A stretch of 64,000 nt of DNA, from sequence record NC_100327.1; one strand, 5' to 3'. Position 1 is the stretch's first letter, and each line of letters starts with the position of its first letter. Shown here one piece after another: positions 2,180 to 59,862 of this stretch. A model generated the notes under the pieces. That model saw only the letters and a program-made list of their open reading frames with translations, did no database searches and was not told the DNA's origin. The DNA is from a phage. The position numbers and the translations under genes are program-made.

Positions 2180-4516
2180 TTACCAAAGGTCGGTAGACAT
2201 GAAGTTGATATCTTTATTGTTCTCCCACTCAAGTTTTGCATCAAATATTTTGTTAAACTCACCCTCATCTATTGAAATCGTGATTTTCCCATCACTGATC
2301 TCTAAAGGTAGCATTTCCATAGTTCTTAATTGAGAAGCAAAACCAGGGCCACCCGGCAACGGAAGAGTCCCGCCCGGTAAGGTGTCCAAAGGATTAACAA
2401 ACCCGTTACCTCCCGATATGATATCTTTGCGAATCATATCGCTGATAGTATCCAGCTGCTGATTTCTTTCACTTAGTGGGTTGTAACGGTCATTAAATAA
2501 TTCCCCGGCGCTTAGTATTGTACCGATAATGCCCAGCTTACCGAGCAGACCAACTTTGCCACCAGGTGTCTTGAGGCCACCTCCACCTTTTCCTGCCGGA
2601 GCTCCACCACCAGATCCTTCTGTAGTAGCGGCACCCGCTGCTCCAGCTGCACCTCTTAGAGAGTTAAGGAATTTAAAGGTTTTTACAAGCATGGATGCCA
2701 TGACAAAACCTTTTGTTAGGGCGTTGACTACCAGCATGATGGCAGCAGCAAACCCTGCCCATTTAGCATAGCTAAAGGTGTCATGAAGCTCTTCAGAATA
2801 TTCCTTCGTCTTAGCTGTTATGAATCCCCATTTAATCCCCCATTCAAGGAAAAACATGCGGATCTTGACTATAGTGTTGTTTAGTTCACCAACTACCCAG
2901 TTAAGGCCTCTCACAAACCCGCTAACAAAATCACCAGAGGCATCCCACACAAATTGCAGAGTCTCACCCGTGCGGATCAGTGTATAATAGAACTCTGTTA
3001 GTTCGTCAGACCAACGGGTGAACAGTTTCTGACGAGTCAGTTCGATGAAGGTTTTCAGTCTGTTTTCTGCCAGCACGTTAGACTTCTGCATTCTTTCATA
3101 ACCAGCTGCAGATGCCTCGTTCATGTACTTAGCCACATACTTCATGATCTTGGCTGTTTTAACCTCACCTTTCTTCATCATGTCCATGAACTGATCCATG
3201 GAGAGTTCAGAAAGACCAAAAGCCTCTTTGGTGGCCTTGATAAAAGGTTCGTATGCACCAGGCAATGCTTCAGCAAGTTGTTGCTTCAGTTCTTCGGACA
3301 TTACTTGTCCTTTCCCAAGCATCTGTTGGATTGCCATAATACCGCGCTGGTATTTTACCTCATCGGCACCATAAGCAGCAGCATACTGTGAGTATGCAGA
3401 AAACAGCTCATGCACTTCCTGATTTGTCATCTGGTTTTTGGCGTTTACCGACATCTGGGCGTAACCTTGAAGACCAGATTTGAGATCAAAACCAAGACGC
3501 ATAGCCTCTTGCTGGACAAACGCAACCTCACTGTTGGCTTTGTTTGGATCTCCAGTAACAGCAGTAAGAGCAGCACTTGCCCCCTCCATCATGTGACCGG
3601 ATCTGTTAACCGCAGCAAATCCAGAAAAAGCTGTATACGCAGCTGTTGCATTAATAACAGATCTACGTAAGTCTCTCATGGCATCGCCTAGTGTAAGCGT
3701 TTGGCTGGTGGCGCTTTTAAACCCAGACTGCAGCGCTGACAGGTGGGCGTTAAAGGTTGACTTCTTCATCTCCCCGCGAGCAAACCTGGACTCTAACTCT
3801 GAGTATCCTGGCAAGCTTCCACGGAATCCGGCCCCATACTTGGCAGAAAGTCTTATCGCGGAGTTGTAGAGGTGGGTTCTCCTTGCCTCACGATCCGACA
3901 TAAGCCTATTATCCATACCAGCTTTACTGTCTCTTCTTAGCTGTCTATGATAACGATTCATAGCGGCTGTCTGAGCTTTCACAAGGTTAGGGTCGGAAGC
4001 TACACCACCCATATTAGGGTTACCGGGGATATATTTGAAAGCTTTGGCATTAGCCAGAACTCTTGCCTTAGGTGCCTTATAACCGCCGTAAGACACTGGT
4101 GCAGATTTGGCAGCCTTTTTGGCCTCTTTAGCTTGCTGCTGGTAGAACTTACGCATCCTAGCCATTTCTGGATTTTTAGCGGTAAGATTACCTACAGCTT
4201 GTTTACGTCTCGCATTCTCCCTACGTTCTATTGCAGCCCTTACTGCAGCCTCTTTCTTGGCCTGTGCTACGCTCTCTCTGTGCAGTTTAGCATTTGCCTG
4301 AGATTGCTGTCTGGCAACCCTCTGCATTGTCTGCTGGGTTTTAACAGCTACCGCCTGCCATCTACTCATGGGGTTGGCTGAGTTAAAATCCTCGCCCAGT
4401 TTCCTGAACTCCCTCCCAATACTGCGAATTTTCTCTACAGCTTTTTTGTAGGAGGAGTTCTCTATCTCAAAGCCAATCTTGTTGACTGTTGTGGCAACTA
4501 TTTTGTTTGTAGCCAT
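2180..4516 (-). CDS. tail tape measure protein
   Basis: 778 aa, ATG with GAGGA RBS; long alpha-helical Ala/Gln/Lys-rich N-terminus, Gly-rich segment, hydrophobic stretches; follows chaperone pair. Confidence 0.8.
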   Translation of the reverse strand: MATNKIVATTVNKIGFEIENSSYKKAVEKIRSIGREFRKLGEDFNSANPMSRWQAVAVKTQQTMQRVARQQSQANAKLHRESVAQAKKEAAVRAAIERRENARRKQAVGNLTAKNPEMARMRKFYQQQAKEAKKAAKSAPVSYGGYKAPKARVLANAKAFKYIPGNPNMGGVASDPNLVKAQTAAMNRYHRQLRRDSKAGMDNRLMSDREARRTHLYNSAIRLSAKYGAGFRGSLPGYSELESRFARGEMKKSTFNAHLSALQSGFKSATSQTLTLGDAMRDLRRSVINATAAYTAFSGFAAVNRSGHMMEGASAALTAVTGDPNKANSEVAFVQQEAMRLGFDLKSGLQGYAQMSVNAKNQMTNQEVHELFSAYSQYAAAYGADEVKYQRGIMAIQQMLGKGQVMSEELKQQLAEALPGAYEPFIKATKEAFGLSELSMDQFMDMMKKGEVKTAKIMKYVAKYMNEASAAGYERMQKSNVLAENRLKTFIELTRQKLFTRWSDELTEFYYTLIRTGETLQFVWDASGDFVSGFVRGLNWVVGELNNTIVKIRMFFLEWGIKWGFITAKTKEYSEELHDTFSYAKWAGFAAAIMLVVNALTKGFVMASMLVKTFKFLNSLRGAAGAAGAATTEGSGGGAPAGKGGGGLKTPGGKVGLLGKLGIIGTILSAGELFNDRYNPLSERNQQLDTISDMIRKDIISGGNGFVNPLDTLPGGTLPLPGGPGFASQLRTMEMLPLEISDGKITISIDEGEFNKIFDAKLEWENNKDINFMSTDLW

Positions 4517-51809: not shown

Positions 51810-52043
51810 ATGAAAGTTAAATTTCTTACAGATTTAGGGTACCCTTCCTTGGTTGACTGTGTTGGTAAAATTGTGGAAGCAAAACGGCTATCTGCAAACG
51901 AGAATGTTGTCCTGGTTAAAGGGAAGGATTTACTAGCTGCAGGTGCAGAGTCTGGCAGGATCTCTCCTGATTATATGTATTACCTATCTTTAAGTAATCT
52001 GCCAGAGCGAGGCGGTAAAGGCCTTGAAGTTGTGGAGGGGTGA
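51810..52043 (+). CDS. small acidic protein, paralog family A
   Basis: 77 aa, ATG with AGGAGG RBS; MKVKFL...VVLVKGKDLLAAGA. Confidence 0.55.
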   Translation: MKVKFLTDLGYPSLVDCVGKIVEAKRLSANENVVLVKGKDLLAAGAESGRISPDYMYYLSLSNLPERGGKGLEVVEG

Positions 52044-52048
52044 CAGGT

Positions 52049-52573
52049 ATGCTTCTGATTAACTGGGAAGACCTCTATGGGGACAAAGACCCTGTTGCGT
52101 TTGTTGATCGTAGGTGGAGATACACTGAAGAACAACTGGCGGCAAAAAATTTAACTGCAAAACGCAGAAAGATCATCCAGTGCAAGTACAAATACGCACA
52201 GTTTGCTGCAAAAGTGTCTCCACAAATCGAGAGCTTTGTGCTTAAATTGTATGACGAGTACCTCAAATTCAAATTGGATTTTGTACAGGTGTACCGTGCA
52301 CAGATACGACCAGATACCAACATATGTAGATGGAAGGTTGTTTGTGACGGTAAAGATTTGCCGCTCAGCTTGACAATTGAGTGGCGTTATGGGTATCATG
52401 AGTGTGGTCTGTATGATATTTGGGATGTCATTGTAGATCCTGCTAAGCATCTGAACACAGAGGAGCTGGAATATATCAATAAGGTTATTCTCGATATGTT
52501 TTTCAGCTACACCCATGAAAACTCTGAGAAAGAACGGGATAATTTTCTTGACACCCTCAGTTGCCATTTGTAG
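52049..52573 (+). CDS. hypothetical protein
   Basis: ORF track 52040..52573 (GTG); ATG at codon 4 after GGAGGGG. Confidence 0.5.
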   Translation: MLLINWEDLYGDKDPVAFVDRRWRYTEEQLAAKNLTAKRRKIIQCKYKYAQFAAKVSPQIESFVLKLYDEYLKFKLDFVQVYRAQIRPDTNICRWKVVCDGKDLPLSLTIEWRYGYHECGLYDIWDVIVDPAKHLNTEELEYINKVILDMFFSYTHENSEKERDNFLDTLSCHL

Positions 52574-52576
52574 TAT
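52548..52576 (+). promoter_or_regulatory. sigma70-type promoter
   Basis: TTGACA - 17 nt - TAGTAT. Confidence 0.5.
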
Positions 52577-52603
52577 ACAATTTAACCTACAAAGGGAGGA
52601 CCA

Positions 52604-52840
52604 ATGAGTATAAATGTTGTGCTAATAGGTTACCTGGTAATGTCCGTTATAACAGCGGTATTCTTGACAGGTGTATGCATCGTGTCCAGACGAAGGGTGA
52701 AGTTTGAGGATTTTATCACCATCATCACTGCTGCACCTTTTTGGCCTGTTGTTATCTTCATCGTGATAATGTGCCTTGTTGATTACTACAAGAATATCCG
52801 TAAGGAGAAAAAGGAGGGTAGGGATGGAGACCGCACCTAA
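52604..52840 (+). CDS. small membrane protein (two predicted TM helices)
   Basis: 78 aa, ATG with GGGAGG RBS; hydrophobic segments VVLIGYLVMSVITAVFLTGVCIV and FWPVVIFIVIMCLV. Confidence 0.5.
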   Translation: MSINVVLIGYLVMSVITAVFLTGVCIVSRRRVKFEDFITIITAAPFWPVVIFIVIMCLVDYYKNIRKEKKEGRDGDRT

Positions 52841-52976
52841 AACTGTTTATACTGTTCTTAAAGAGATTGCGTTCTACGCAGATCTTAGCCAGGCACCTTT
52901 ATGGGAAAAGAGCATGTATTTAAAATGGTGCGTTAATTTAGGGAGGCCTTCCAGTGTTTCAAGCCATGTTTATTGA
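52824..52976 (+). CDS. hypothetical small protein
   Basis: ORF track 52776..52976; ATG (METAPKT) with AAGGAGGG RBS. Confidence 0.45.
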   Translation: METAPKTVYTVLKEIAFYADLSQAPLWEKSMYLKWCVNLGRPSSVSSHVY

Positions 52977-53073
52977 GATGCTATCTGGGGTATTGTTACT
53001 GGTAGCCATCTTAGGTGGTGCAGTTCTGATGTATAACTATCTTGAAAAAGGAGACAGCAATGGTAAAAAATAA
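52954..53073 (+). CDS. hydrophobic micro-peptide (candidate)
   Basis: Found by hand; GTG after GGGAGG; ...MFIEMLSGVLLLVAILGGAVLMYNYLEK... Confidence 0.3.
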   Translation: MFQAMFIEMLSGVLLLVAILGGAVLMYNYLEKGDSNGKK

Positions 53074-53245
53074 ATCTTTAGAGCAGGCTGAAAACCTTCT
53101 CCACGAGCTGGTAAAGGAGTGGAAAGTTGAATACTCAGATTTTAATGCACGAGAGGGTGAAGATTATTGGCCTACGGAGCGCTCAGAGGGCGAATGGTAT
53201 CAAGATTTTATAGAGTGGTTATATCAGACGTGCGATGAGGGGTGA
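53060..53245 (+). CDS. hypothetical small acidic protein
   Basis: ORF track 53042..53245; ATG at codon 7 with AAGGAG RBS. Confidence 0.45.
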   Translation: MVKNKSLEQAENLLHELVKEWKVEYSDFNAREGEDYWPTERSEGEWYQDFIEWLYQTCDEG

Positions 53246-53247
53246 CG

Positions 53248-53712
53248 ATGTTTGTTAAATATGTAAAAACGTGCCTCAACAGTCTTGGCAGAGAGCATTG
53301 GTACACCTTGCTTGAAAAAGGGGAAATTTTAACAAAATCTGGAAAGATAACTTTGATACCTCTTGATAGTAAAGGTAAAGACCCGTCACGACTTGTTATA
53401 GATGATTACGTTACAGGTGTGACGTTCGAGGTCTCTGTGGAGAGGTTAATACGCAGAGCTGGCGGCCCTTATGACCGAAGAGAGTATGTTTTCGATTCCG
53501 TTACAGAGATGGGGGAGCATCCGTCTTTAATGTTCAGGATGGTAATCAGAGATATGAGGTCATCTATAGATAGGATCGTAAAGGACATTAAGGAACCTTT
53601 TAGAGTAAAAGTTAAGAAGTTTTTCGATTCTAAGATTAACATACTCGCCGTTGCACTAGGTGTAGTTCAACTTCTGTTAATTTTGCACTATTTTGAACTA
53701 CTATTTAAGTAG
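53248..53712 (+). CDS. C-terminally membrane-anchored protein
   Basis: ORF track 53242..53712; ATG at codon 3; C-terminal hydrophobic helix ILAVALGVVQLLLILHYF. Confidence 0.5.
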   Translation: MFVKYVKTCLNSLGREHWYTLLEKGEILTKSGKITLIPLDSKGKDPSRLVIDDYVTGVTFEVSVERLIRRAGGPYDRREYVFDSVTEMGEHPSLMFRMVIRDMRSSIDRIVKDIKEPFRVKVKKFFDSKINILAVALGVVQLLLILHYFELLFK

Positions 53713-53774
53713 TAGTTGAGATATGGCACAAAGGATGTGCCATAGTGAAATAAACTAAGAAAGAGGTAGAGAGA

Positions 53775-54122
53775 ATGCCAAAGATTAAAACGTTATTACT
53801 GTGGGTAGCTGTTTTAGCTTTTATAGGGTACTGGACTTGGGAAACTGAATTAAAAGATATCGGATATACCAGTCTTGAGAGCAAGGCGTGCATTGGCATA
53901 ACCGATGCGTTCAGGCAAAATGCTATGGATCACGAATGTGTTGATGCAGATATAGATGAGAAACTGTCTAAGGACAAAGATTTTTACCATGGGCATGCTT
54001 TACTTGATAGTGGTGACACTGTAGAGTTCTGGTCGTGGTTTCGTGAAGATGGAACAATAAAAACAGCAGTAAAGATTTCTAACAAAGAGTTAATGCTGTT
54101 GCAGCAAAAGGAGGCTCAATGA
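53775..54122 (+). CDS. N-terminally anchored membrane/periplasmic protein
   Basis: 115 aa, ATG with AGAGG RBS; N-terminal TM LLLWVAVLAFIGYW. Confidence 0.5.
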   Translation: MPKIKTLLLWVAVLAFIGYWTWETELKDIGYTSLESKACIGITDAFRQNAMDHECVDADIDEKLSKDKDFYHGHALLDSGDTVEFWSWFREDGTIKTAVKISNKELMLLQQKEAQ

Positions 54123-54406
54123 TTTGGATATCCTATGCTGATGGCACCATGCTGTATACTGCAGGTACCAGATATGAAGTTCAGGAGAACGATAAAAAAT
54201 TTATCGTAAAAACATTTGACAAGGACGACAACCTTTTGCTAGAATTGACTTACAAAGTTGGAGAGGTATCCAATATCCAGTTGGATTGTGGTCATAAAGA
54301 TAATTCACTCAAAAAACCTGGAGTAGGTAAGGCTTCAGAAGAACGTCTGTCTCGTATTGCAGAAAGCGTTTCTCCCCAAAAATCTAAGAAGAGGACTAGA
54401 AAATGA
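54119..54406 (+). CDS. hypothetical protein
   Basis: 95 aa, ATG with AAGGAGG RBS. Confidence 0.5.
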   Translation: MIWISYADGTMLYTAGTRYEVQENDKKFIVKTFDKDDNLLLELTYKVGEVSNIQLDCGHKDNSLKKPGVGKASEERLSRIAESVSPQKSKKRTRK

Positions 54407-54597
54407 AAAACTTACGTTTTAACACTTATTACTACAACACATTGAATGATTTGTATTATATTGTTCGAAGTAAAAGTCCTGAAACAGTCCTATTCTGCCG
54501 CGAACCTTTCAAAGGGGAGGAAGTAGAGTCTGAGATGAATGTTAGCCAGATCACCTCTTTGTTGCTCTCAGGCGCAATGGAAGAAGCAATATTCTAA
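54403..54597 (+). CDS. hypothetical protein
   Basis: 64 aa, ATG overlapping upstream stop. Confidence 0.45.
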   Translation: MKNLRFNTYYYNTLNDLYYIVRSKSPETVLFCREPFKGEEVESEMNVSQITSLLLSGAMEEAIF

Positions 54598-54615
54598 ACC
54601 AGGCGGGAGGGTTTT

Positions 54616-54801
54616 ATGAAGCACTATTGCCTGTCTGGTAGAATGGGTGCAGATTGTGATTGGGTTTTCTTAAAACTTGTCAGCATTCGAGAGTTCATCC
54701 CAGAGGAAGAGCAAGAAAGCGAGCTGATGTCATGGATCAACCATTACGGTAACACTTTTCGGCATGTTAAGGTAGAAGAGTTGCCAAGCGAGGCTGATTG
54801 A
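54616..54801 (+). CDS. hypothetical protein
   Basis: 61 aa, ATG with GGGAGGG RBS. Confidence 0.45.
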   Translation: MKHYCLSGRMGADCDWVFLKLVSIREFIPEEEQESELMSWINHYGNTFRHVKVEELPSEAD

Positions 54802-54803
54802 CT

Positions 54804-54893
54804 ATGATTGCATCAATATTAACGTTTATGGGTGGCGTGGCATTCGGATTCATTGTTTGCCTGTTTATAGTGATTATGTCTATGCGAGGCTGA
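54804..54893 (+). CDS. hydrophobic micro-peptide (29 aa, candidate)
   Basis: Found by hand; MIASILTFMGGVAFGFIVCLFIVIMSMRG; begins 3 nt after upstream stop. Confidence 0.3.
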   Translation: MIASILTFMGGVAFGFIVCLFIVIMSMRG

Positions 54894-54896
54894 ATT

Positions 54897-55193
54897 ATGA
54901 AACTTTTTGAGTGGTTTAAAAAGTTTAAATATAAAGCTGTAGCCATCGTGCCGTGGTCCATTCAGTGGGTTGATGAAGGTGGTCTACCGATACCTGGTGA
55001 CAAAGATACTGGGTACTGGATTATGATGGAGAACGGGTTTGGAAAGCGAAAGTATACGTGCACAAACTCTACTCGATCTGCACTTAATAGAGTGCCTGGT
55101 TACAAACTTATGGTTGTGTGGAAAATGTCAGGCGTGCCTCCAGCCAATGCTCAATTTCTTACTGACAATCCTACCACGGTAGAGGGAGATTGA
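54897..55193 (+). CDS. hypothetical protein
   Basis: 98 aa, ATG with GAGG RBS. Confidence 0.5.
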   Translation: MKLFEWFKKFKYKAVAIVPWSIQWVDEGGLPIPGDKDTGYWIMMENGFGKRKYTCTNSTRSALNRVPGYKLMVVWKMSGVPPANAQFLTDNPTTVEGD

Positions 55194-55195
55194 TA

Positions 55196-55477
55196 ATGAA
55201 AAAGATTAACAGTAGTGAAGTCGAGTTTAAACTTGTCGGAAAAGGCACTTACTGGGAAGTTCGTCAAAAGGTATATTTGTTCGGTCTTATTCCTTACTGG
55301 TCTAAATTCTACTGGGGAGCTAACGAGTGGGGAAGATACGCCACCAAATCAATGGCACTTATTGGTATAGCAGAGTACATTGCAGCCAGAGATAGGGTTG
55401 GAGACACTTATTACTATACTGCGGACGATATTCGTAACAGTGTTTACGTCCCACAACCACCTGATGGAGACCGTTGA
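55196..55477 (+). CDS. hypothetical protein
   Basis: ORF track 55190..55477; ATG at codon 3 with AGAGGGAG RBS. Confidence 0.5.
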   Translation: MKKINSSEVEFKLVGKGTYWEVRQKVYLFGLIPYWSKFYWGANEWGRYATKSMALIGIAEYIAARDRVGDTYYYTADDIRNSVYVPQPPDGDR

Positions 55478-55701
55478 TGAAAGTTAAAGTTTTAGATTCA
55501 AGCTTCTATATTGGTCAGGAGCCCTTAGTGGGGAAAGTGTTTACTGCTGTCCCTAACGAAGATTACCCCGACCTTTTAAAAATAAAAGGGGCAGATCTTA
55601 TTGCCGCTGGTGCATCTCAGGAATGCTTTGACAGTCAGTGGACCTACAACTTTGCCCTAGGTGAGGATGTAGAGATAGTGGAGGACAATCATGAAGGTTA
55701 A
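55477..55701 (+). CDS. small acidic protein, paralog family A
   Basis: ORF track 55474..55701; ATG; MKVKVLDSSFYIGQ...LLKIKGADLIAAGA...DVEIVED. Confidence 0.55.
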   Translation: MKVKVLDSSFYIGQEPLVGKVFTAVPNEDYPDLLKIKGADLIAAGASQECFDSQWTYNFALGEDVEIVEDNHEG

Positions 55702-55945
55702 AATTCTTGATTCTAACGTCTACTTGGGACAATCCTTCCTGAAGGGAAAGGTCGTTCCTGCGGTATACTTTGAAGGGTTGCCGTGGGATGATCCTGTTCG
55801 GCAACATCACAGTTATGTAGGCCACAACGTAGTGTTTATCTTAGGAGCAGACCTGATCACCGCTGGTGCACCTGAATATTATTTCGGGGAAGAGTCCTAT
55901 TATGCCTTTGGGGTAGGGTCAGATGCAGATATTGTAGAGCTGTGA
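55691..55945 (+). CDS. small acidic protein, paralog family A
   Basis: 84 aa; MKVKILDSNVYLGQ...VVFILGADLITAGA...DADIVEL. Confidence 0.55.
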   Translation: MKVKILDSNVYLGQSFLKGKVVPAVYFEGLPWDDPVRQHHSYVGHNVVFILGADLITAGAPEYYFGEESYYAFGVGSDADIVEL

Positions 55946-55957
55946 TGGGTAACCGTT

Positions 55958-56356
55958 GTGAAAAATAAACTGTTCAAAGTTACAATGAAAATTCGCGGAG
56001 CTTGGAGCATAAAGCAAGGGCGTATTCCAGAATTTGAGAAAGACTTCTACGTAGTCTCCACCTCGGAGGAGGCTGCATGCTGGCAAGCTGGCTATGCCTA
56101 TGCAAGAACCTGGTACGAAGGATACCAGACTGGGGGCTATGACGGAGAAATTATCAGCAAGGGTGTAGAAGAAATTAATGTGTTGACAAGTGAAAAAGTT
56201 TTTGTTATAGTGCATCCAGATTCCAGAGTGAAGCATTACTGGAATGCCAGAACAAAAACTTGGACACCGTTTGCAGATTCTGCTACACCACTTTTAAACC
56301 AGAAAGCTCTTGACTCTGTCCCGAGCTATGGGGTTGTTGAAGAAAAGCTAAACTGA
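55958..56356 (+). CDS. paralog family B protein (~130 aa)
   Basis: GTG start; C-terminal region HPDSRVKHYWNARTKTWTPF parallels 58163..58558. Confidence 0.5.
   Translation: MKNKLFKVTMKIRGAWSIKQGRIPEFEKDFYVVSTSEEAACWQAGYAYARTWYEGYQTGGYDGEIISKGVEEINVLTSEKVFVIVHPDSRVKHYWNARTKTWTPFADSATPLLNQKALDSVPSYGVVEEKLN
56183..56211 (+). promoter_or_regulatory. sigma70-type promoter inside coding sequence
   Basis: TTGACA - 17 nt - TATAGT. Confidence 0.4.
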
Positions 56357-56373
56357 AACAGTGGGGTACTAAC

Positions 56374-56664
56374 ATGATGGATTTAGTTCTGGACACTGAT
56401 AACACCGGAGCGTTTAAAAAGGATGGTGTAACAAGCGTTGACCAATCCTTCCCTGCCAAGATTGACTCAAAATGGACCTACAAGTTTGATGGAGAGATCT
56501 TCGCAAATGATGAGAAGGTTGTAGATGCTGCAGCCATTTTGAACGCTCTAGGGTACGACCCTGTGAATTCTTTGATCAAGGATCCTGTTGAGTTTGCAGA
56601 GTATGTTCGAAAAATGGCAGATCTTGCTGTGGATATTTTAAAAACTATCGACAACAATCTGTAA
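56374..56664 (+). CDS. hypothetical protein
   Basis: 96 aa, ATG with GGGG RBS. Confidence 0.5.
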   Translation: MMDLVLDTDNTGAFKKDGVTSVDQSFPAKIDSKWTYKFDGEIFANDEKVVDAAAILNALGYDPVNSLIKDPVEFAEYVRKMADLAVDILKTIDNNL

Positions 56665-56670
56665 AAACTG

Positions 56671-56699
56671 TTGACACAACGCTTCAGATTTAGTATCAT
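56671..56699 (+). promoter_or_regulatory. sigma70-type promoter
   Basis: TTGACA - 17 nt - TATCAT. Confidence 0.6.
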
Positions 56700-56746
56700 T
56701 GTTTTCAAAGAGGGTTTGGTTCCCTCTTCTTTAAAAGGAACACGTT

Positions 56747-57064
56747 ATGCAAATTGAAATCACTGGCAACGTAGAAATCACTGAAGGTATGGTGTCTTTC
56801 ATTTCCCACAAAATGTCTAAGCTGGAGCGTTTGCATCCCTCTGCCAACTATGCACGTGTGAGTGTAAAAGTTGAAAATGATCACCAGGAAGTTATGGCGT
56901 TCATTTTTGACAATTCTGGAAAAGAAGTTATTGCCAAAGCTAAAGGCAGTGATGCTTACGAGGCAACTGACCGTATGGTAGATGTTGCAGCACGTCAGCT
57001 GGCTAAATGCGGTGGAAAGAAAGGTAAGGGGAAAGGCAAAGTAAAGATTGACTTTGGAGAATGA
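56747..57064 (+). CDS. ribosome hibernation factor-like protein (HPF/RaiA/YfiA family)
   Basis: 105 aa; MQIEITGNVEITEG...KLER...VKVEN...AKGSDAYEATDRMVDVAARQLAK parallels E. coli HPF as recalled; Gly/Lys-rich tail. Confidence 0.7.
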   Translation: MQIEITGNVEITEGMVSFISHKMSKLERLHPSANYARVSVKVENDHQEVMAFIFDNSGKEVIAKAKGSDAYEATDRMVDVAARQLAKCGGKKGKGKGKVKIDFGE

Positions 57065-57073
57065 GGTGCTACA

Positions 57074-57175
57074 ATGGGTGTGATTAAGAAATTAGTCCCA
57101 AATGTAGAGATTGCATGCTTTGAAATTATGTTTGCAATCGCAGTTGTAGTTAATGTGTTAGGTTACGGCTATTAA
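57074..57175 (+). CDS. hydrophobic micro-peptide (33 aa, candidate)
   Basis: Found by hand; ATG after GAGGTG; MGVIKKLVPNVEIACFEIMFAIAVVVNVLGYGY. Confidence 0.35.
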   Translation: MGVIKKLVPNVEIACFEIMFAIAVVVNVLGYGY

Positions 57176-57201
57176 TATCAAATAATTGAGGAGACCTCTA
57201 A

Positions 57202-57471
57202 ATGAAAATTAAATTATTCAAAACTGAGCTGGCAGACAAAAACTGTGGACTGGTTGAAGGTATGATTGTCGAAGCACAACCAGTTGACTATATGAAGGTG
57301 GTTCGTGATGCCCTGGGTGAAGGTTTTGATCTGATGGAGCCAGCTCTGCGAGAAGATGTTATCGAGATGGCTAAAAAGCACACACCTGAAGGCATGGTGG
57401 TGTTTGTTGCACCGGGTAACGGAGAAGAGTTGATTGTAACTCCGGATGTGTATGAGATTGTAGAGGAATAA
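57202..57471 (+). CDS. small acidic protein, paralog family A
   Basis: 89 aa, ATG with GAGGAG RBS; MKIKLFK...MVVFVAPGNGEELIV...EIVEE. Confidence 0.5.
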   Translation: MKIKLFKTELADKNCGLVEGMIVEAQPVDYMKVVRDALGEGFDLMEPALREDVIEMAKKHTPEGMVVFVAPGNGEELIVTPDVYEIVEE

Positions 57472-57492
57472 CCCTGCTTGGATTAGCATACT

Positions 57493-57515
57493 TCCTCGAT
57501 AAGGAAGGTTTGTAA
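57493..57515 (+). terminator. hairpin terminator
   Basis: CTTCCT-cgata-AGGAAG followed by GTTTG. Confidence 0.4.
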
Positions 57516-57562
57516 TTATTTGTGGGAAAGGAATCCCAATCTCTTACCAGAGGTGATACTAT

Positions 57563-57826
57563 ATGATTGTTTATTTTAAAACTTCAGGTGGATACCCTGA
57601 TTCTCAAAGCTTGATCGGAAAAACGTGCACAGCATACTCACCTCTTGATGAGGAGGTAGGCGATATTCTACGAAATATGTATCGGATTGATCCTCAAGAA
57701 GCTTTTGATCAAAACCTTGTATTTGTCAAGGGCTCAGACATGAAGTCTTTGGGAGCATTCCCTGAAGCAGATGATGATGCCGTTTATTCGTTCATGACCC
57801 CTTTTGAAGCTATGGTTGTTGGGTGA
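57563..57826 (+). CDS. small acidic protein, paralog family A
   Basis: 87 aa, ATG with AGAGGTG RBS; LVFVKGSDMKSLGAF motif. Confidence 0.5.
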   Translation: MIVYFKTSGGYPDSQSLIGKTCTAYSPLDEEVGDILRNMYRIDPQEAFDQNLVFVKGSDMKSLGAFPEADDDAVYSFMTPFEAMVVG

Positions 57827-57830
57827 TAAT

Positions 57831-58163
57831 ATGAAAGTACGCTTTATTGGTGAAACAATTCCTGTGCATCTCCGGTCTCCTGAGGATTCTGCAGATCTTG
57901 CATCTCAAAAGGCGAGAGGTTATGATAAGAAAGTAACCTCAACCGATGTAGTGCTTGAGGCTACCAGTCTACCTGACCCTGCTGCATTCTTTAATCATTA
58001 TGGGTACTATTTCAGCAATCTGATGAATATCGGTGAGCTTGTGTTTATTAGTGGTGAAGAGATTGTTAGCAAGCTTGGCGGCGATCCAGATGTCTTTCAT
58101 GAAACCTGTCCTTTTGCATTTGTGGTAGGTTCAGATGTGGAAGTTATTGAGGAGGTGCGGTAA
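57831..58163 (+). CDS. small acidic protein, paralog family A
   Basis: ORF track 57804..58163; ATG (MKVRFIGE) with GGGTGA RBS; LVFISGEEIVSKLGG and VGSDVEVIEE motifs. Confidence 0.5.
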   Translation: MKVRFIGETIPVHLRSPEDSADLASQKARGYDKKVTSTDVVLEATSLPDPAAFFNHYGYYFSNLMNIGELVFISGEEIVSKLGGDPDVFHETCPFAFVVGSDVEVIEEVR

Positions 58164-58558
58164 TGGTAAGCCTATACCGTGTTGAGTATAGCTCAGATAC
58201 TGTATACAACGTAAGAAGCAAAGATCGCAGCGACAGAGTGCAAGAAATGTATGTTCTTGCCGACAGTCCGTTATCTGCAGCGTTCAAGGCAGGGGCTCTT
58301 GCATCTCGTTGGAAATTTGAAGGGGGATCTTTCTATGAAGAAACCCTTGAAGATTCTGTTGTTATTTCTTCTGTAGAGGTTTCAGACGACTACGAAGGGA
58401 AAAAGTTCGTAATGCGGCACCCACACAGCAACATTGCGTACTACTGGGATGTTCTGAACAACGAGTGGACCCCAGATCTTCAGAAGGCTACTGTGCTAAC
58501 ACCGTTTTTGGCAGATAAGTTCCCACCAGAAGGTAATTTATCCGCACTGTTTCAGTAA
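58163..58558 (+). CDS. paralog family B protein (~130 aa)
   Basis: 131 aa, ATG with GGAGGTG RBS; HPHSNIAYYWDVLNNEWTPD parallels 55958..56356. Confidence 0.5.
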   Translation: MVSLYRVEYSSDTVYNVRSKDRSDRVQEMYVLADSPLSAAFKAGALASRWKFEGGSFYEETLEDSVVISSVEVSDDYEGKKFVMRHPHSNIAYYWDVLNNEWTPDLQKATVLTPFLADKFPPEGNLSALFQ

Positions 58559-58576
58559 TTTTCTTGCACACAGGTG

Positions 58577-58605
58577 TTGACAACTCCAACCCTGTGTGAA
58601 ATAAT
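58577..58605 (+). promoter_or_regulatory. sigma70-type promoter
   Basis: TTGACA - 17 nt - AATAAT. Confidence 0.5.
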
Positions 58606-58637: not shown

Positions 58638-58895
58638 ATGAAGATTAAATTGAAAAACCTTGAAACGGCAGAGATTCAGGACGGTGTTGATTTCCGTTCT
58701 AAAGATGGTGACATCTTAGAGGTAAATATTCCAACCTACGAGCTGATTAAAGGTTTTGGCAACGTTCCGGAAGAGGATATTACAGAAATTCTTATGATGT
58801 TGATTCTTGACGGAACTGTGTTTGTAGGTGAAGGTGAGAACGCTATTGCAATCCCAGGCCATTTTTATGAAGTAGTTGACGAAGAGGTGCTGTAA
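58638..58895 (+). CDS. small acidic protein, paralog family A
   Basis: ORF track 58635..58895; ATG; MKIKLKN...TVFVGEGENAIAI...EVVDEEV. Confidence 0.5.
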   Translation: MKIKLKNLETAEIQDGVDFRSKDGDILEVNIPTYELIKGFGNVPEEDITEILMMLILDGTVFVGEGENAIAIPGHFYEVVDEEVL

Positions 58896-59246
58896 ATGAA
58901 AGTAGAAATTACCGGTTTTGATGTGAATGTGGTTCCGGAAGATATTTTAGCTAAACTTCCAGAAGGTTTTGGTAACGGCGTTGTGGTGGATGCTGTTCCT
59001 CCTACCAAAGACATTCTGCTGCAGTATGGTGTAGCAGAGGAAGATGTCGATAAAGTTCTTACAATGATGGCAATCGATCGTGTTGTCGTTGTTAAAGGTC
59101 TCGATAATTTTGAGAGTGATCCCCTGATTATTCGTGGAGATGACTACAAAATCATCGATAATGAAGGCCAAGAGTTCTATGAGCCTTGTGCAGAAGATAT
59201 TCTTAACTTATTACTGGAAGCAGGCACCGAAGAGGAGGACGAATAA
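58896..59246 (+). CDS. small acidic protein, paralog family A (divergent)
   Basis: 116 aa, ATG with GAGGTG RBS; MKVEIT...RVVVVKGLDN...; Glu/Asp-rich tail. Confidence 0.45.
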   Translation: MKVEITGFDVNVVPEDILAKLPEGFGNGVVVDAVPPTKDILLQYGVAEEDVDKVLTMMAIDRVVVVKGLDNFESDPLIIRGDDYKIIDNEGQEFYEPCAEDILNLLLEAGTEEEDE

Positions 59247-59575
59247 TGAAGATTGACCCGTTACTGAAGGCTCGTGCAGAAAAAGCGTACACCATTAAGT
59301 TGACCAACCTGGTTCCTACTTGTCATCCGGATGTAGGTTGGCCCGAAGGTTTGGTGGAGGGAACTGTAACAGCTGCATACCTTCCTAACATCAAATACCT
59401 TATGGAAATCTTGGAGCTGGATGAGGAAACTGCAGAACAGTTCCAGTTGGATATGAAACAAAGTGGGACTCTGGTTATTCACGGGTGGTACAATACTAAA
59501 GATGCAGAAGACCCTCTGGTAACTTCTAATCTGGCATATGAAATCTTAGGACCTTTGAACCTGGAGAAAGACTAA
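59246..59575 (+). CDS. small acidic protein (family A-like)
   Basis: 109 aa, ATG with GAGGAGG RBS. Confidence 0.45.
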   Translation: MKIDPLLKARAEKAYTIKLTNLVPTCHPDVGWPEGLVEGTVTAAYLPNIKYLMEILELDEETAEQFQLDMKQSGTLVIHGWYNTKDAEDPLVTSNLAYEILGPLNLEKD

Positions 59576-59862
59576 TGAAAGATCTGGTTAAGATTAAGAT
59601 TAAAGATACCAATGGAGAACTCAGTCATTTTGGAATTAATGATGGTGACGAGCTGATCGCACACCTGCCTACCAAGGAAGTTGTAAGCAAAGCAGTTGCC
59701 GGAGAAGAAGATGCAATGCAGGCTGCAGGTGTGGATGAAAACTATGTAGCCATGTGCATGTGCCGAGATCAGGTTGTTCTGTATAAAGCGTATCGACCAA
59801 ACGGAGCCACGGAGTGGCTTGTATTCCGACCCGAAGGATATGAAATCTTAGAGGCACTATGA
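59575..59862 (+). CDS. small acidic protein (family A-like)
   Basis: 95 aa, ATG with GGAGAAAG RBS; MKDLVKIKIK start. Confidence 0.45.
   Translation: MKDLVKIKIKDTNGELSHFGINDGDELIAHLPTKEVVSKAVAGEEDAMQAAGVDENYVAMCMCRDQVVLYKAYRPNGATEWLVFRPEGYEILEAL

What the first reader, a model, noticed from the sequence alone, without database searches (positions are those of the whole stretch)
55958..58558. Paralog pair of ~130-aa proteins marking the cassette duplication
55958..56356 and 58163..58558 share a colinear C-terminal block (VIVHPDSRVKHYWNARTKTWTPFADSATPLLNQKA versus FVMRHPHSNIAYYWDVLNNEWTPDLQKATVLTPFLADKF) and similar N-termini. Each ends a run of two family-A genes, supporting a duplication of a ~0.9-1 kb unit followed by divergence.
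Basis: seen in the sequence. Interest (0 to 1): 0.45.

Follow-up and report, generated by a model that had tools for sequence, protein, structure and literature searches.

The report
Paralogous orphan accessory genes in rV5-like phage
Two ~131-residue proteins of an rV5-like E. coli phage are real, anciently diverged paralogs of an orphan family, and published transposon data on a near-identical phage show they are dispensable on lab E. coli but needed on a clinical isolate, so they are probably host-specific counter-defence or takeover factors.

Summary
ORFs 55958..56356 (B1) and 58163..58558 (B2) align over about 120 residues at 27% identity (BLASTP E 1e-9; shuffle z 17), and both match phrog_7379 end to end.

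The window is a Vequintavirus (rV5-like coliphage) accessory-gene block. Each B gene follows two genes of a small SH3-like family A.

The reading of one cassette duplication is only partly supported:
- In the family A tree, A1 and A2 are each other's closest relatives, not A1/A3 and A2/A4.
- DNA similarity between the cassettes is confined to two short coding motifs.
- Divergent relatives carry A1-A2 without B1, or a B1-type gene with no A genes beside it.
- The B1/B2 split therefore predates these lineages, and the genes move independently.

The B family is an orphan: five clusters among billions of proteins, all in rV5-like phages, with no hit in Pfam, NCBIfam, PADLOC or PDB sequences.

Function comes from the supplementary data of a 2025 preprint (HIDEN-SEQ on phage Bas54). 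B1, B2, A1 and A2 are non-essential on K-12. On uropathogenic isolate CFE311, insertions in A3, A4 and B2 vanish (log2FC -6 to -7) and B1 drops fourfold. The authors did not follow this up.

Most likely these are host-specific accessory, probably counter-defence, proteins with an unknown target.

The parts
55958..56356 (+). B1: 132-aa member of orphan family phrog_7379 (GTG start; near-neutral, pI 7.8)
   Evidence: ORF. phrog_7379 E 1e-73 over the full length. Paralogous to B2. The N-terminal strand upstream of the ATG at 55985 is conserved in all family members, which supports the GTG start. dN/dS about 0.09 against phage MaxBurger. The orthologue bas54_0157 is non-essential on K-12 and has log2FC -2.14, q<1e-5, on isolate CFE311.
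58163..58558 (+). B2: 131-aa member of the same family (acidic, pI 4.7). Its ATG overlaps the A4 stop (TAATG) and follows a strong GAGGAGG ribosome-binding site.
   Evidence: (E 2e-66). It is 97.7-100% conserved in 118 phage records. The orthologue bas54_0150 has 25 of 25 TA sites hit on K-12, and counts fall from 108 to 0 on CFE311, log2FC -6.77.
55477..55701 (+). A1: 74-aa family A protein (phrog_5009), SH3-like small beta-barrel
55691..55945 (+). A2: 84-aa family A protein, closest paralog of A1 (42% identity), immediately upstream of B1
   Evidence: (E 8e-15). bas54_0158 has log2FC -0.30, not significant, on CFE311.
57563..57826 (+). A3: 87-aa family A protein (phrog_13920), first gene of the second cassette
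   Evidence: bas54_0152 counts fall from 142 to 0 on CFE311, log2FC -7.16.
57831..58163 (+). A4: 110-aa family A protein (phrog_13661) with a long insert, immediately upstream of B2
   Evidence: bas54_0151 counts fall from 71 to 0 on CFE311, log2FC -6.17.
51810..52043 (+). A0: fifth, solitary family A paralog outside both cassettes
   Evidence: It is the only A gene detected in the distant relative L006.
58568..58605 (+). Hairpin (58568..58598) just after the B2 stop, overlapping a sigma-70-like promoter (58577..58605). Likely the downstream boundary of the A3-A4-B2 unit.
   Evidence: TTGACA-17-AATAAT, 11 of 12 matches, TG. (about -21 kcal/mol, z -3.8). The downstream gene bas54_0149 is unaffected on CFE311.

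Best explanation
B1 and B2 are anciently diverged paralogs of an orphan family of ~130-residue alpha/beta proteins found only in rV5-like (Vequintavirus-type) phages. They sit in the block of small accessory genes on the + strand. They are not needed for growth on E. coli K-12, but they contribute to infection of at least one uropathogenic isolate: B2 is indispensable there and B1 contributes partially. I infer that they are small cytoplasmic proteins that bind and neutralise a strain-variable host factor, most probably a component of an anti-phage defence system. The two copies have diverged in charge and sequence and have partly distinct targets or efficiencies. B2 acts together with the two SH3-like family A genes upstream of it (A3, A4) as one expression and functional unit. 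The repeated A-A-B order reflects old, stepwise duplication and reshuffling within a fast-turnover accessory region, not one copy-and-paste of a 1 kb cassette. What is shown: the paralogy, the family's restriction to these phages, purifying selection, the gene order, and the Tn-seq phenotypes in a 97-99% identical phage. What is inferred: the counter-defence role, the binding mechanism, and cooperation between A3, A4 and B2.
For: Paralogy is shown. The window is 99% identical to Vequintavirus phages. The family has only five clusters, all in rV5-like contigs, in searches of 5.8e9 and 1.8e9 proteins, and among cultured phages it occurs only in Vequintavirus. There is no match in Pfam, NCBIfam, PADLOC or PDB sequences. 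Both genes are under purifying selection, dN/dS about 0.09.

HIDEN-SEQ on Bas54 (phage MaxBurger), Extended Data Table 8 of bioRxiv 10.1101/2025.11.20.689424, with locus tags mapped:
- On K-12, B1 has 18 of 19 and B2 25 of 25 TA sites hit, so both are non-essential.
- On CFE311 against K-12, A3 is -7.16, A4 -6.17 and B2 -6.77, all with q<1e-5; B1 is -2.14 with q<1e-5; A1, A2, HPF and the gene downstream of B2 are unchanged.
- Two members of one two-member family both fall among the 27 significant genes of 227.

Insertions in A2, directly upstream of B1, have no effect, which argues against strong polarity. The transposon also carries no terminator.

Natural variation agrees. B2 is at least 97.7% conserved and intact in all 118 records. 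B1 is more variable, and together with A1 and A2 it is deleted in phage EduardKellenberger and truncated or fused in several assemblies.
Confidence: 0.55

Rival explanations
1. One segmental duplication copied a complete A-A-B cassette of about 1 kb. The copies then diverged, and the high A1-A2 similarity is secondary, caused by gene conversion between tandem neighbours.
For: The A-A-B order occurs twice within 3 kb. There are weak colinear DNA and tblastx matches, A2 with A4 at the 3' end and B1 with B2. A2-A4 has the strongest cross-cassette z-score, 9.1. Recombination between A1 and A2 does occur: the chimera P0026 is found in two contigs.
Against: The tree pairs A1 with A2 (72%), and nothing pairs A1 with A3 or A2 with A4. 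A1 and A2 are already distinct orthogroups in L003 and L007, so any conversion would have to be old. Relatives carry A1-A2 without B, or B1 without A. The junctions differ.
Confidence: 0.2
2. The B proteins act on the host translation apparatus. They mimic or bind ribosomal components and work alongside the phage-encoded hibernation factor nearby; they do not counter a defence system.
Confidence: 0.1
3. The conditional phenotype is not a property of the B proteins. It would be a local cis or polar effect, for example a disrupted transcript needed for something else or a region-specific artefact of the CFE311 library. In that case B1 and B2 are simply dispensable orphan genes of unknown role.
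For: Three adjacent, tightly coupled genes drop to exactly zero together, and the upstream gene bas54_0153 is also lower, -2.78 but not significant. There is one data set, with duplicated sheets.
Against: B1, 1.8 kb away in a different context, is independently significant, while its upstream neighbours A1 and A2 are not. The genes flanking the A3-A4-B2 block are unaffected. The authors saw little polarity genome-wide. Both genes are under purifying selection and B2 is invariant across the genus.
Confidence: 0.12
4. The B1-B2 resemblance is chance or compositional, and the two are not homologous.
For: Identity is only 27%.
Against: z is 17 against shuffles and E is 1e-9. The alignment is full length and colinear. 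Both match one PHROG profile end to end. Intermediate sequences P0007, P0008 and P0012 bridge them.
Confidence: 0.01

Closest known systems
PHROGs family phrog_7379 (unknown function)
   Same: Both B1 and B2 match the profile over its whole length, E 1e-73 and 2e-66. The paralogy is therefore already implicit in that clustering.
   Different: The family carries no annotation. Nothing in it says that two members sit in one genome, that two subtypes exist, or that there is a phenotype.
Small phage-encoded inhibitor proteins that bind one host protein (T7 Gp2, anti-CRISPR AcrIE2 and AcrIC9; anti-defence genes found by HIDEN-SEQ such as bas54_0140 and T4 nrdC.1)
   Different: There is no sequence relationship. 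The target is unknown and inhibition has not been shown. B is about twice the size of Gp2 or a typical Acr, and it has an extra C-terminal beta region carrying the conserved HP.S..YW...W motif.
Ribosomal protein eL20 / LX (L18a) fold
   Different: There is no sequence signal, eL20 is absent from bacteria, and the score is in the range of fold convergence.
Multigene families of small accessory genes in large lytic phages
   Same: Clustered, diverged paralogs lie in a non-essential region with presence/absence variation between relatives, and recombination occurs between tandem copies.
   Different: That such paralog expansions are common in large lytic phages is my own recollection, not tested here, and no specific named family was compared. 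What is specific here is the coupling of an alpha/beta B protein with two SH3-like A proteins.

Membership tests
phrog_7379 | Significant full-length match to the family HMM | tested here: met
   B1 E 1.3e-73 (residues 2-132 on profile 1-131). B2 E 2.1e-66 (1-131 on 1-131).
Any curated family (Pfam-A, NCBIfam, PADLOC defence proteins, PDB sequences) | Match above the curated or a significant threshold | tested here: not met
   No Pfam hit at E<=1. NCBIfam gives only 12-bit noise against cut-offs of 100 or more. No PADLOC hit. The best PDB sequence match has E 0.38.
Ribosomal protein eL20/LX (Pfam Ribosomal_L18A) | Sequence-profile match, and a fold match strong enough to imply homology | tested here: not met
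Segmental (cassette) duplication of an A-A-B unit | Same gene order in both copies | tested here: met
   A1-A2-B1 at 55477..56356 and A3-A4-B2 at 57563..58558.
Segmental (cassette) duplication of an A-A-B unit | Positional counterparts are each other's closest paralogs (A1 with A3, A2 with A4) | tested here: not met
   A1 and A2 cluster together at 72% bootstrap, and no A1/A3 or A2/A4 clade appears.
Segmental (cassette) duplication of an A-A-B unit | Residual colinear DNA similarity including non-coding junctions | tested here: not met
   There are only two short matches, both inside conserved coding motifs, and the junctions differ.
Segmental (cassette) duplication of an A-A-B unit | The cassette is inherited as a unit in related genomes | tested here: not met
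   L003 and L007 have A1-A2 without B1. L006 has a B1-type gene without any adjacent A.
Phage anti-defence (counter-immunity) proteins, a functional class | Dispensable on a permissive host and required on a host carrying the cognate defence | tested here: inconclusive
   Published Tn-seq shows non-essential on K-12, with B2, A3 and A4 lost and B1 reduced on CFE311. The host determinant has not been identified.
Phage anti-defence (counter-immunity) proteins, a functional class | Direct inhibition or binding of a defined defence component | not testable with these tools
   This needs genetics or biochemistry. No anti-defence HMM library was available.
SH3-like small beta-barrel fold (for family A) | Five-stranded barrel with a structural match to SH3/KOW/PsaE domains | tested here: inconclusive

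The most novel reading that the evidence does not exclude
The B family, together with its SH3-like A partners, is a previously unrecognised counter-defence module of rV5-like phages. It neutralises an as yet unidentified, possibly new, immunity determinant of uropathogenic E. coli. The two diverged paralogs, one neutral and one acidic, would cover different variants of the target, as expected from an arms race.
Probability: 0.35. Interest if true: 0.65.

Novelty: new member of a known kind. Interest (0 to 1): 0.42.

Why it matters
rV5-like phages are widely used in E. coli O157 biocontrol and in therapy cocktails, yet most of their genes have no known role. This analysis links an orphan paralog pair to a strong host-specific phenotype that lies in published supplementary data but was never discussed. 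That yields a concrete three-gene candidate (A3-A4-B2, plus B1) for a host-range or counter-defence determinant. It also gives a handle for finding the matching determinant in a clinical isolate. On the evolutionary side, the repeated A-A-B order is not a simple cassette copy. It shows how small accessory genes of large phages are duplicated, shuffled and lost independently.

Tried and rejected
1. Known-family assignment for B and A. Pfam, NCBIfam, PADLOC and PDB sequence profiles gave nothing.
2. Wider homologues. Two word-indexed searches and one exhaustive HMMER search returned only rV5-like sequences. The two long repetitive proteins P0010 and P0011 were judged spurious because each matched through six repeated stretches of a repetitive sequence.
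3. tblastn with the divergent P0008, to reach other Vequintavirinae genera, hit only Vequintavirus.
5. Linking family A to the neighbouring acidic 'family C' genes. hhalign probability was 1.7%, so the link was rejected.
6. A promoter directly upstream of A3. None was found by consensus scan, only a weak terminator-like hairpin at 57491..57507.
7. dN/dS between the L003 and L007 B genes. Synonymous sites were saturated.
8. Other literature leads (KpAvs2, retron triggers in Bas51, the rV5 genome paper). None concerns these genes.
9. The second HIDEN-SEQ host, CFE303. The sheet held under that title is a duplicate of the CFE311 run, so there is no second condition.
Full report
**Context.** The window is a Vequintavirus. 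Region 55400-58600 is 98-99% identical to about 115 rV5-like E. coli phages, including pangalan, CarlMeissner and rV5 itself. The finding lies in a long run of small + strand genes, nearly all annotated 'hypothetical protein'. The run sits downstream of the PhoH, ClpP and Dam-like genes seen in syntenic relatives.

**Check of the observation.** ORFs 55958..56356 (B1, 132 aa) and 58163..58558 (B2, 131 aa) are as described.
- BLASTP gives 27% identity over 119 columns, E 1e-9.
- The Smith-Waterman score is 111 against 27.9 +/- 4.9 for 5000 shuffles: z 17, Gumbel p about 1e-10.
- The similarity is full length, not only the quoted C-terminal block.
- Both proteins match one PHROG profile, phrog_7379, end to end at E 1e-73 and 2e-66.
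- An HMM built from the pair finds no third copy in the window.

**Family A and gene order.** Iterated HMM searches define a family A with five members: 51810 (A0), 55477 (A1), 55691 (A2), 57563 (A3) and 57831 (A4). Each B gene therefore does end a run of two A genes. A separate, loosely related set of acidic genes ('family C': 57202, 58638, 58896, 59246, 59575) flanks the second cassette. It is not related to A by profile comparison. A phage S30AE/HPF gene (56747..57064) lies between the cassettes.

**Was a cassette duplicated?** At DNA level, 55400-56400 and 57500-58600 share only two short colinear matches. One is 40 nt at 75% at the 3' ends of A2 and A4; the other is 82 nt at 63% in the B C-terminal block. 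tblastx adds one A2/A3 segment.

Pairwise z-scores within family A are A1-A2 25, A0-A1 12.5, A2-A4 9.1, A1-A4 7.4, A1-A3 4.7 and A3-A4 3.2. I built a neighbour-joining tree with orthologues from related contigs. Each of the five orthogroups is supported at 97-100%, and A1 groups with A2 at 72%. There is no A1/A3 or A2/A4 pairing.

Three more distant relatives were found through the B family:
- L003 (a 124 kb phage contig in an E. coli assembly) and L007 have A1, A2, then unrelated genes, HPF, C1, A3, A4 and a B2-type gene. They have no B1.
- L006 (a 139 kb metagenomic contig) has a single B1-type gene preceded by two unrelated genes. It lacks A1-A4, B2 and HPF.

B1 is 37% identical to the L006 protein, and B2 is 38% identical to the L003/L007 proteins. 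Cross-type pairs are 25-30% identical. So the two B types predate the split of these lineages, the genes are gained and lost separately, and a one-step copy of A-A-B is not supported. Stepwise duplication is the better reading, for example a B or A-B unit first and a separate A1/A2 tandem duplication later. Recombination among copies is ongoing: an A1/A2 chimera, P0026, exists in two contigs.

**How restricted is the family?** The searches returned the following.
- Two word-indexed searches of 5.8e9 proteins and one exhaustive HMMER search of 1.8e9 representatives return only five real clusters, all in rV5-like contigs.
- Among cultured phages, B1 is in 116 records and B2 in 118, all rV5-like and named Escherichia, Shigella or (dubiously) Campylobacter phages.
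- No Pfam, NCBIfam, PADLOC or PDB sequence match exists.
- The rV5 genome paper does not mention paralogs or duplications.

**Are they real genes?** Against phage MaxBurger, dN/dS is about 0.09 for both. B2 has a strong Shine-Dalgarno sequence and a start overlapping the A4 stop. B1 most likely starts at GTG 55958, because the residues upstream of the alternative ATG (55985, used in BASEL annotations) are conserved across the family and form the first strand of the model.

**Functional evidence from the literature.** The HIDEN-SEQ preprint (bioRxiv 10.1101/2025.11.20.689424) made a saturated transposon library of Bas54, which is phage MaxBurger. Its locus tags map directly onto this region: A1 0159, A2 0158, B1 0157, HPF 0155, C1 0153, A3 0152, A4 0151, B2 0150.

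On K-12, B1 (18 of 19 TA sites hit), B2 (25 of 25), A1 and A2 are non-essential. A3, A4 and C1 are 'intermediate'.

In competition on uropathogenic isolate CFE311 against K-12:

| Gene | Mean count, K-12 to CFE311 | log2FC | Significance |
|---|---|---|---|
| A3 | 142 to 0 | -7.16 | q<1e-5 |
| A4 | 71 to 0 | -6.17 | q<1e-5 |
| B2 | 108 to 0 | -6.77 | q<1e-5 |
| B1 | 256 to 57 | -2.14 | q<1e-5 |
| A1 | 176 to 348 | +0.98 | not significant |
| A2 | 189 to 154 | -0.30 | not significant |
| HPF | 781 to 541 | -0.53 | not significant |
| C2 (downstream of B2) | 450 to 595 | +0.40 | not significant |

Only 27 of 227 genes are significant. The paper does not discuss these genes. Only bas54_0063 and bas54_0140 were knocked out, and only DS-28 and Gao_Tmn were cloned from CFE311. 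The transposon lacks a terminator and the authors saw little polarity. Here, insertions in A2 do not phenocopy those in B1, which supports that view.

One caveat applies. Sheets S6 and S7 hold identical numbers, and S6, titled CFE303, was run on the 311 file. Only one host condition is therefore available.

**Natural variation fits the phenotype strengths.** B2 is intact and at least 97.7% identical in all 118 records; 105 are at least 99% identical. B1 is more variable, with only 4 of 116 at 99% or more. It is removed together with A1 and A2 by a ~3.8 kb deletion in phage EduardKellenberger, and it is truncated or fused in several assemblies.

**Interpretation.** B1 and B2 are old paralogs of an orphan accessory family. 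They are dispensable on a lab host and needed on a clinical host, B2 strongly and B1 partly. The most likely role is neutralisation of a strain-variable host factor, probably part of an anti-phage defence. B2 probably works with, or is at least co-expressed with, the SH3-like A3 and A4. A hairpin and promoter-like site just after B2 (58568..58605) marks the likely end of that unit. A translation-related role, suggested by the eL20-like fold and the HPF neighbour, and a cis or polar artefact remain as minor rivals.

**Verdict.** The single-cassette duplication reading is partly supported. The family is new to curated databases but already clustered in PHROGs, and it is of an ordinary kind for large phages. 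Interest is moderate and rests mainly on the unexploited conditional-essentiality signal.

Noticed in passing
window 56747..57064: A phage-encoded ribosome hibernation factor (Pfam Ribosomal_S30AE, E 2e-12) lies between the two cassettes. It is present in L003 and L007 and absent from L006. It is not conditionally required on CFE311 (log2FC -0.53).
   Followed up: partly
window 57202..57471 and 58638..59862: Five small, very acidic genes ('family C') are weakly similar to each other (pairwise z 0.7-7.2, with the higher values linking them in a chain). Four of them form a tandem array right after B2. Orthologues exist in L003 and L006. They are not related to family A by hhalign (probability 1.7%).
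   Followed up: partly
protein P0026 (two ~133 kb rV5-like contigs); corresponds to window 55477..55945: A 70-aa chimera joins A1 residues 1-47 to the C-terminus of A2. This shows recombination between the tandem paralogs at the shared DLIAAGA motif, collapsing two genes into one.
   Followed up: no
L009 (phage EduardKellenberger, Bas59) 3135..3602; window equivalent about 52500..56260: A ~3.8 kb natural deletion fuses the 52040-gene ('putative glycosidase') in frame to the last 33 codons of B1. It removes A1, A2 and about a dozen other small genes, and leaves A3-A4-B2 intact.
   Followed up: partly
proteins P0003, P0004, P0005: These are decayed B1 variants in assemblies. Two have N-terminal truncations or replacements. 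One is a B1 fragment fused to the C-terminal half of the next gene (56374..56664).
   Followed up: no
window 56183..56211: A near-consensus sigma-70 promoter-like site (TTGACA-17-TATAGT with a TG extension, 11 of 12 matches) lies inside the B1 coding sequence. It could drive the downstream genes.
   Followed up: no
window 58568..58605: A strong hairpin (about -21 kcal/mol, z -3.8) sits immediately after the B2 stop. Its loop holds the -35 box of a promoter-like site (TTGACA-17-AATAAT). There is no T tail, so it is not a classic intrinsic terminator.
   Followed up: partly
window 55958 versus 55985: BASEL-collection records annotate B1 from the ATG at 55985 (123 aa). The GTG at 55958 keeps a conserved N-terminal beta-strand shared by all family members, so the shorter annotation is probably wrong.
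   Followed up: yes
GenBank MG0656xx records: Eighteen records named 'Campylobacter phage', with host Campylobacter (C. jejuni in 16), are about 96-100% identical to E. coli rV5-like phages across this region. The host label looks doubtful.
   Followed up: no
bioRxiv 10.1101/2025.11.20.689424, Extended Data Table 8, sheets S6 and S7: The two resampling sheets hold identical numbers. S6 is titled K-12 against CFE303, but its command line names the CFE311 file. The CFE303 result for Bas54 is therefore missing from the held file.
   Followed up: yes
L006 13532..14644: A TnpB/OrfB_IS605 (Cas12f1-like) gene is inserted among the small accessory genes of the distant rV5-like relative.
   Followed up: no
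L003 10467..10763 and L007 10466..10762: A 98-aa gene with Pfam Phage_P22_Y8K6 follows the B2-type gene in these relatives. The window has no counterpart at that position.
   Followed up: no
BFVD hits V5KSY8 (phage 4MG, 185 aa) and K4F953 (Cronobacter phage GAP31, 97 aa): These are weak Foldseek matches to the B1 model, with E 8e-3 and 0.13 and probabilities 1.0 and 0.94. They may be remote B-family relatives in another Vequintavirinae genus. The sequences could not be retrieved here.
   Followed up: no
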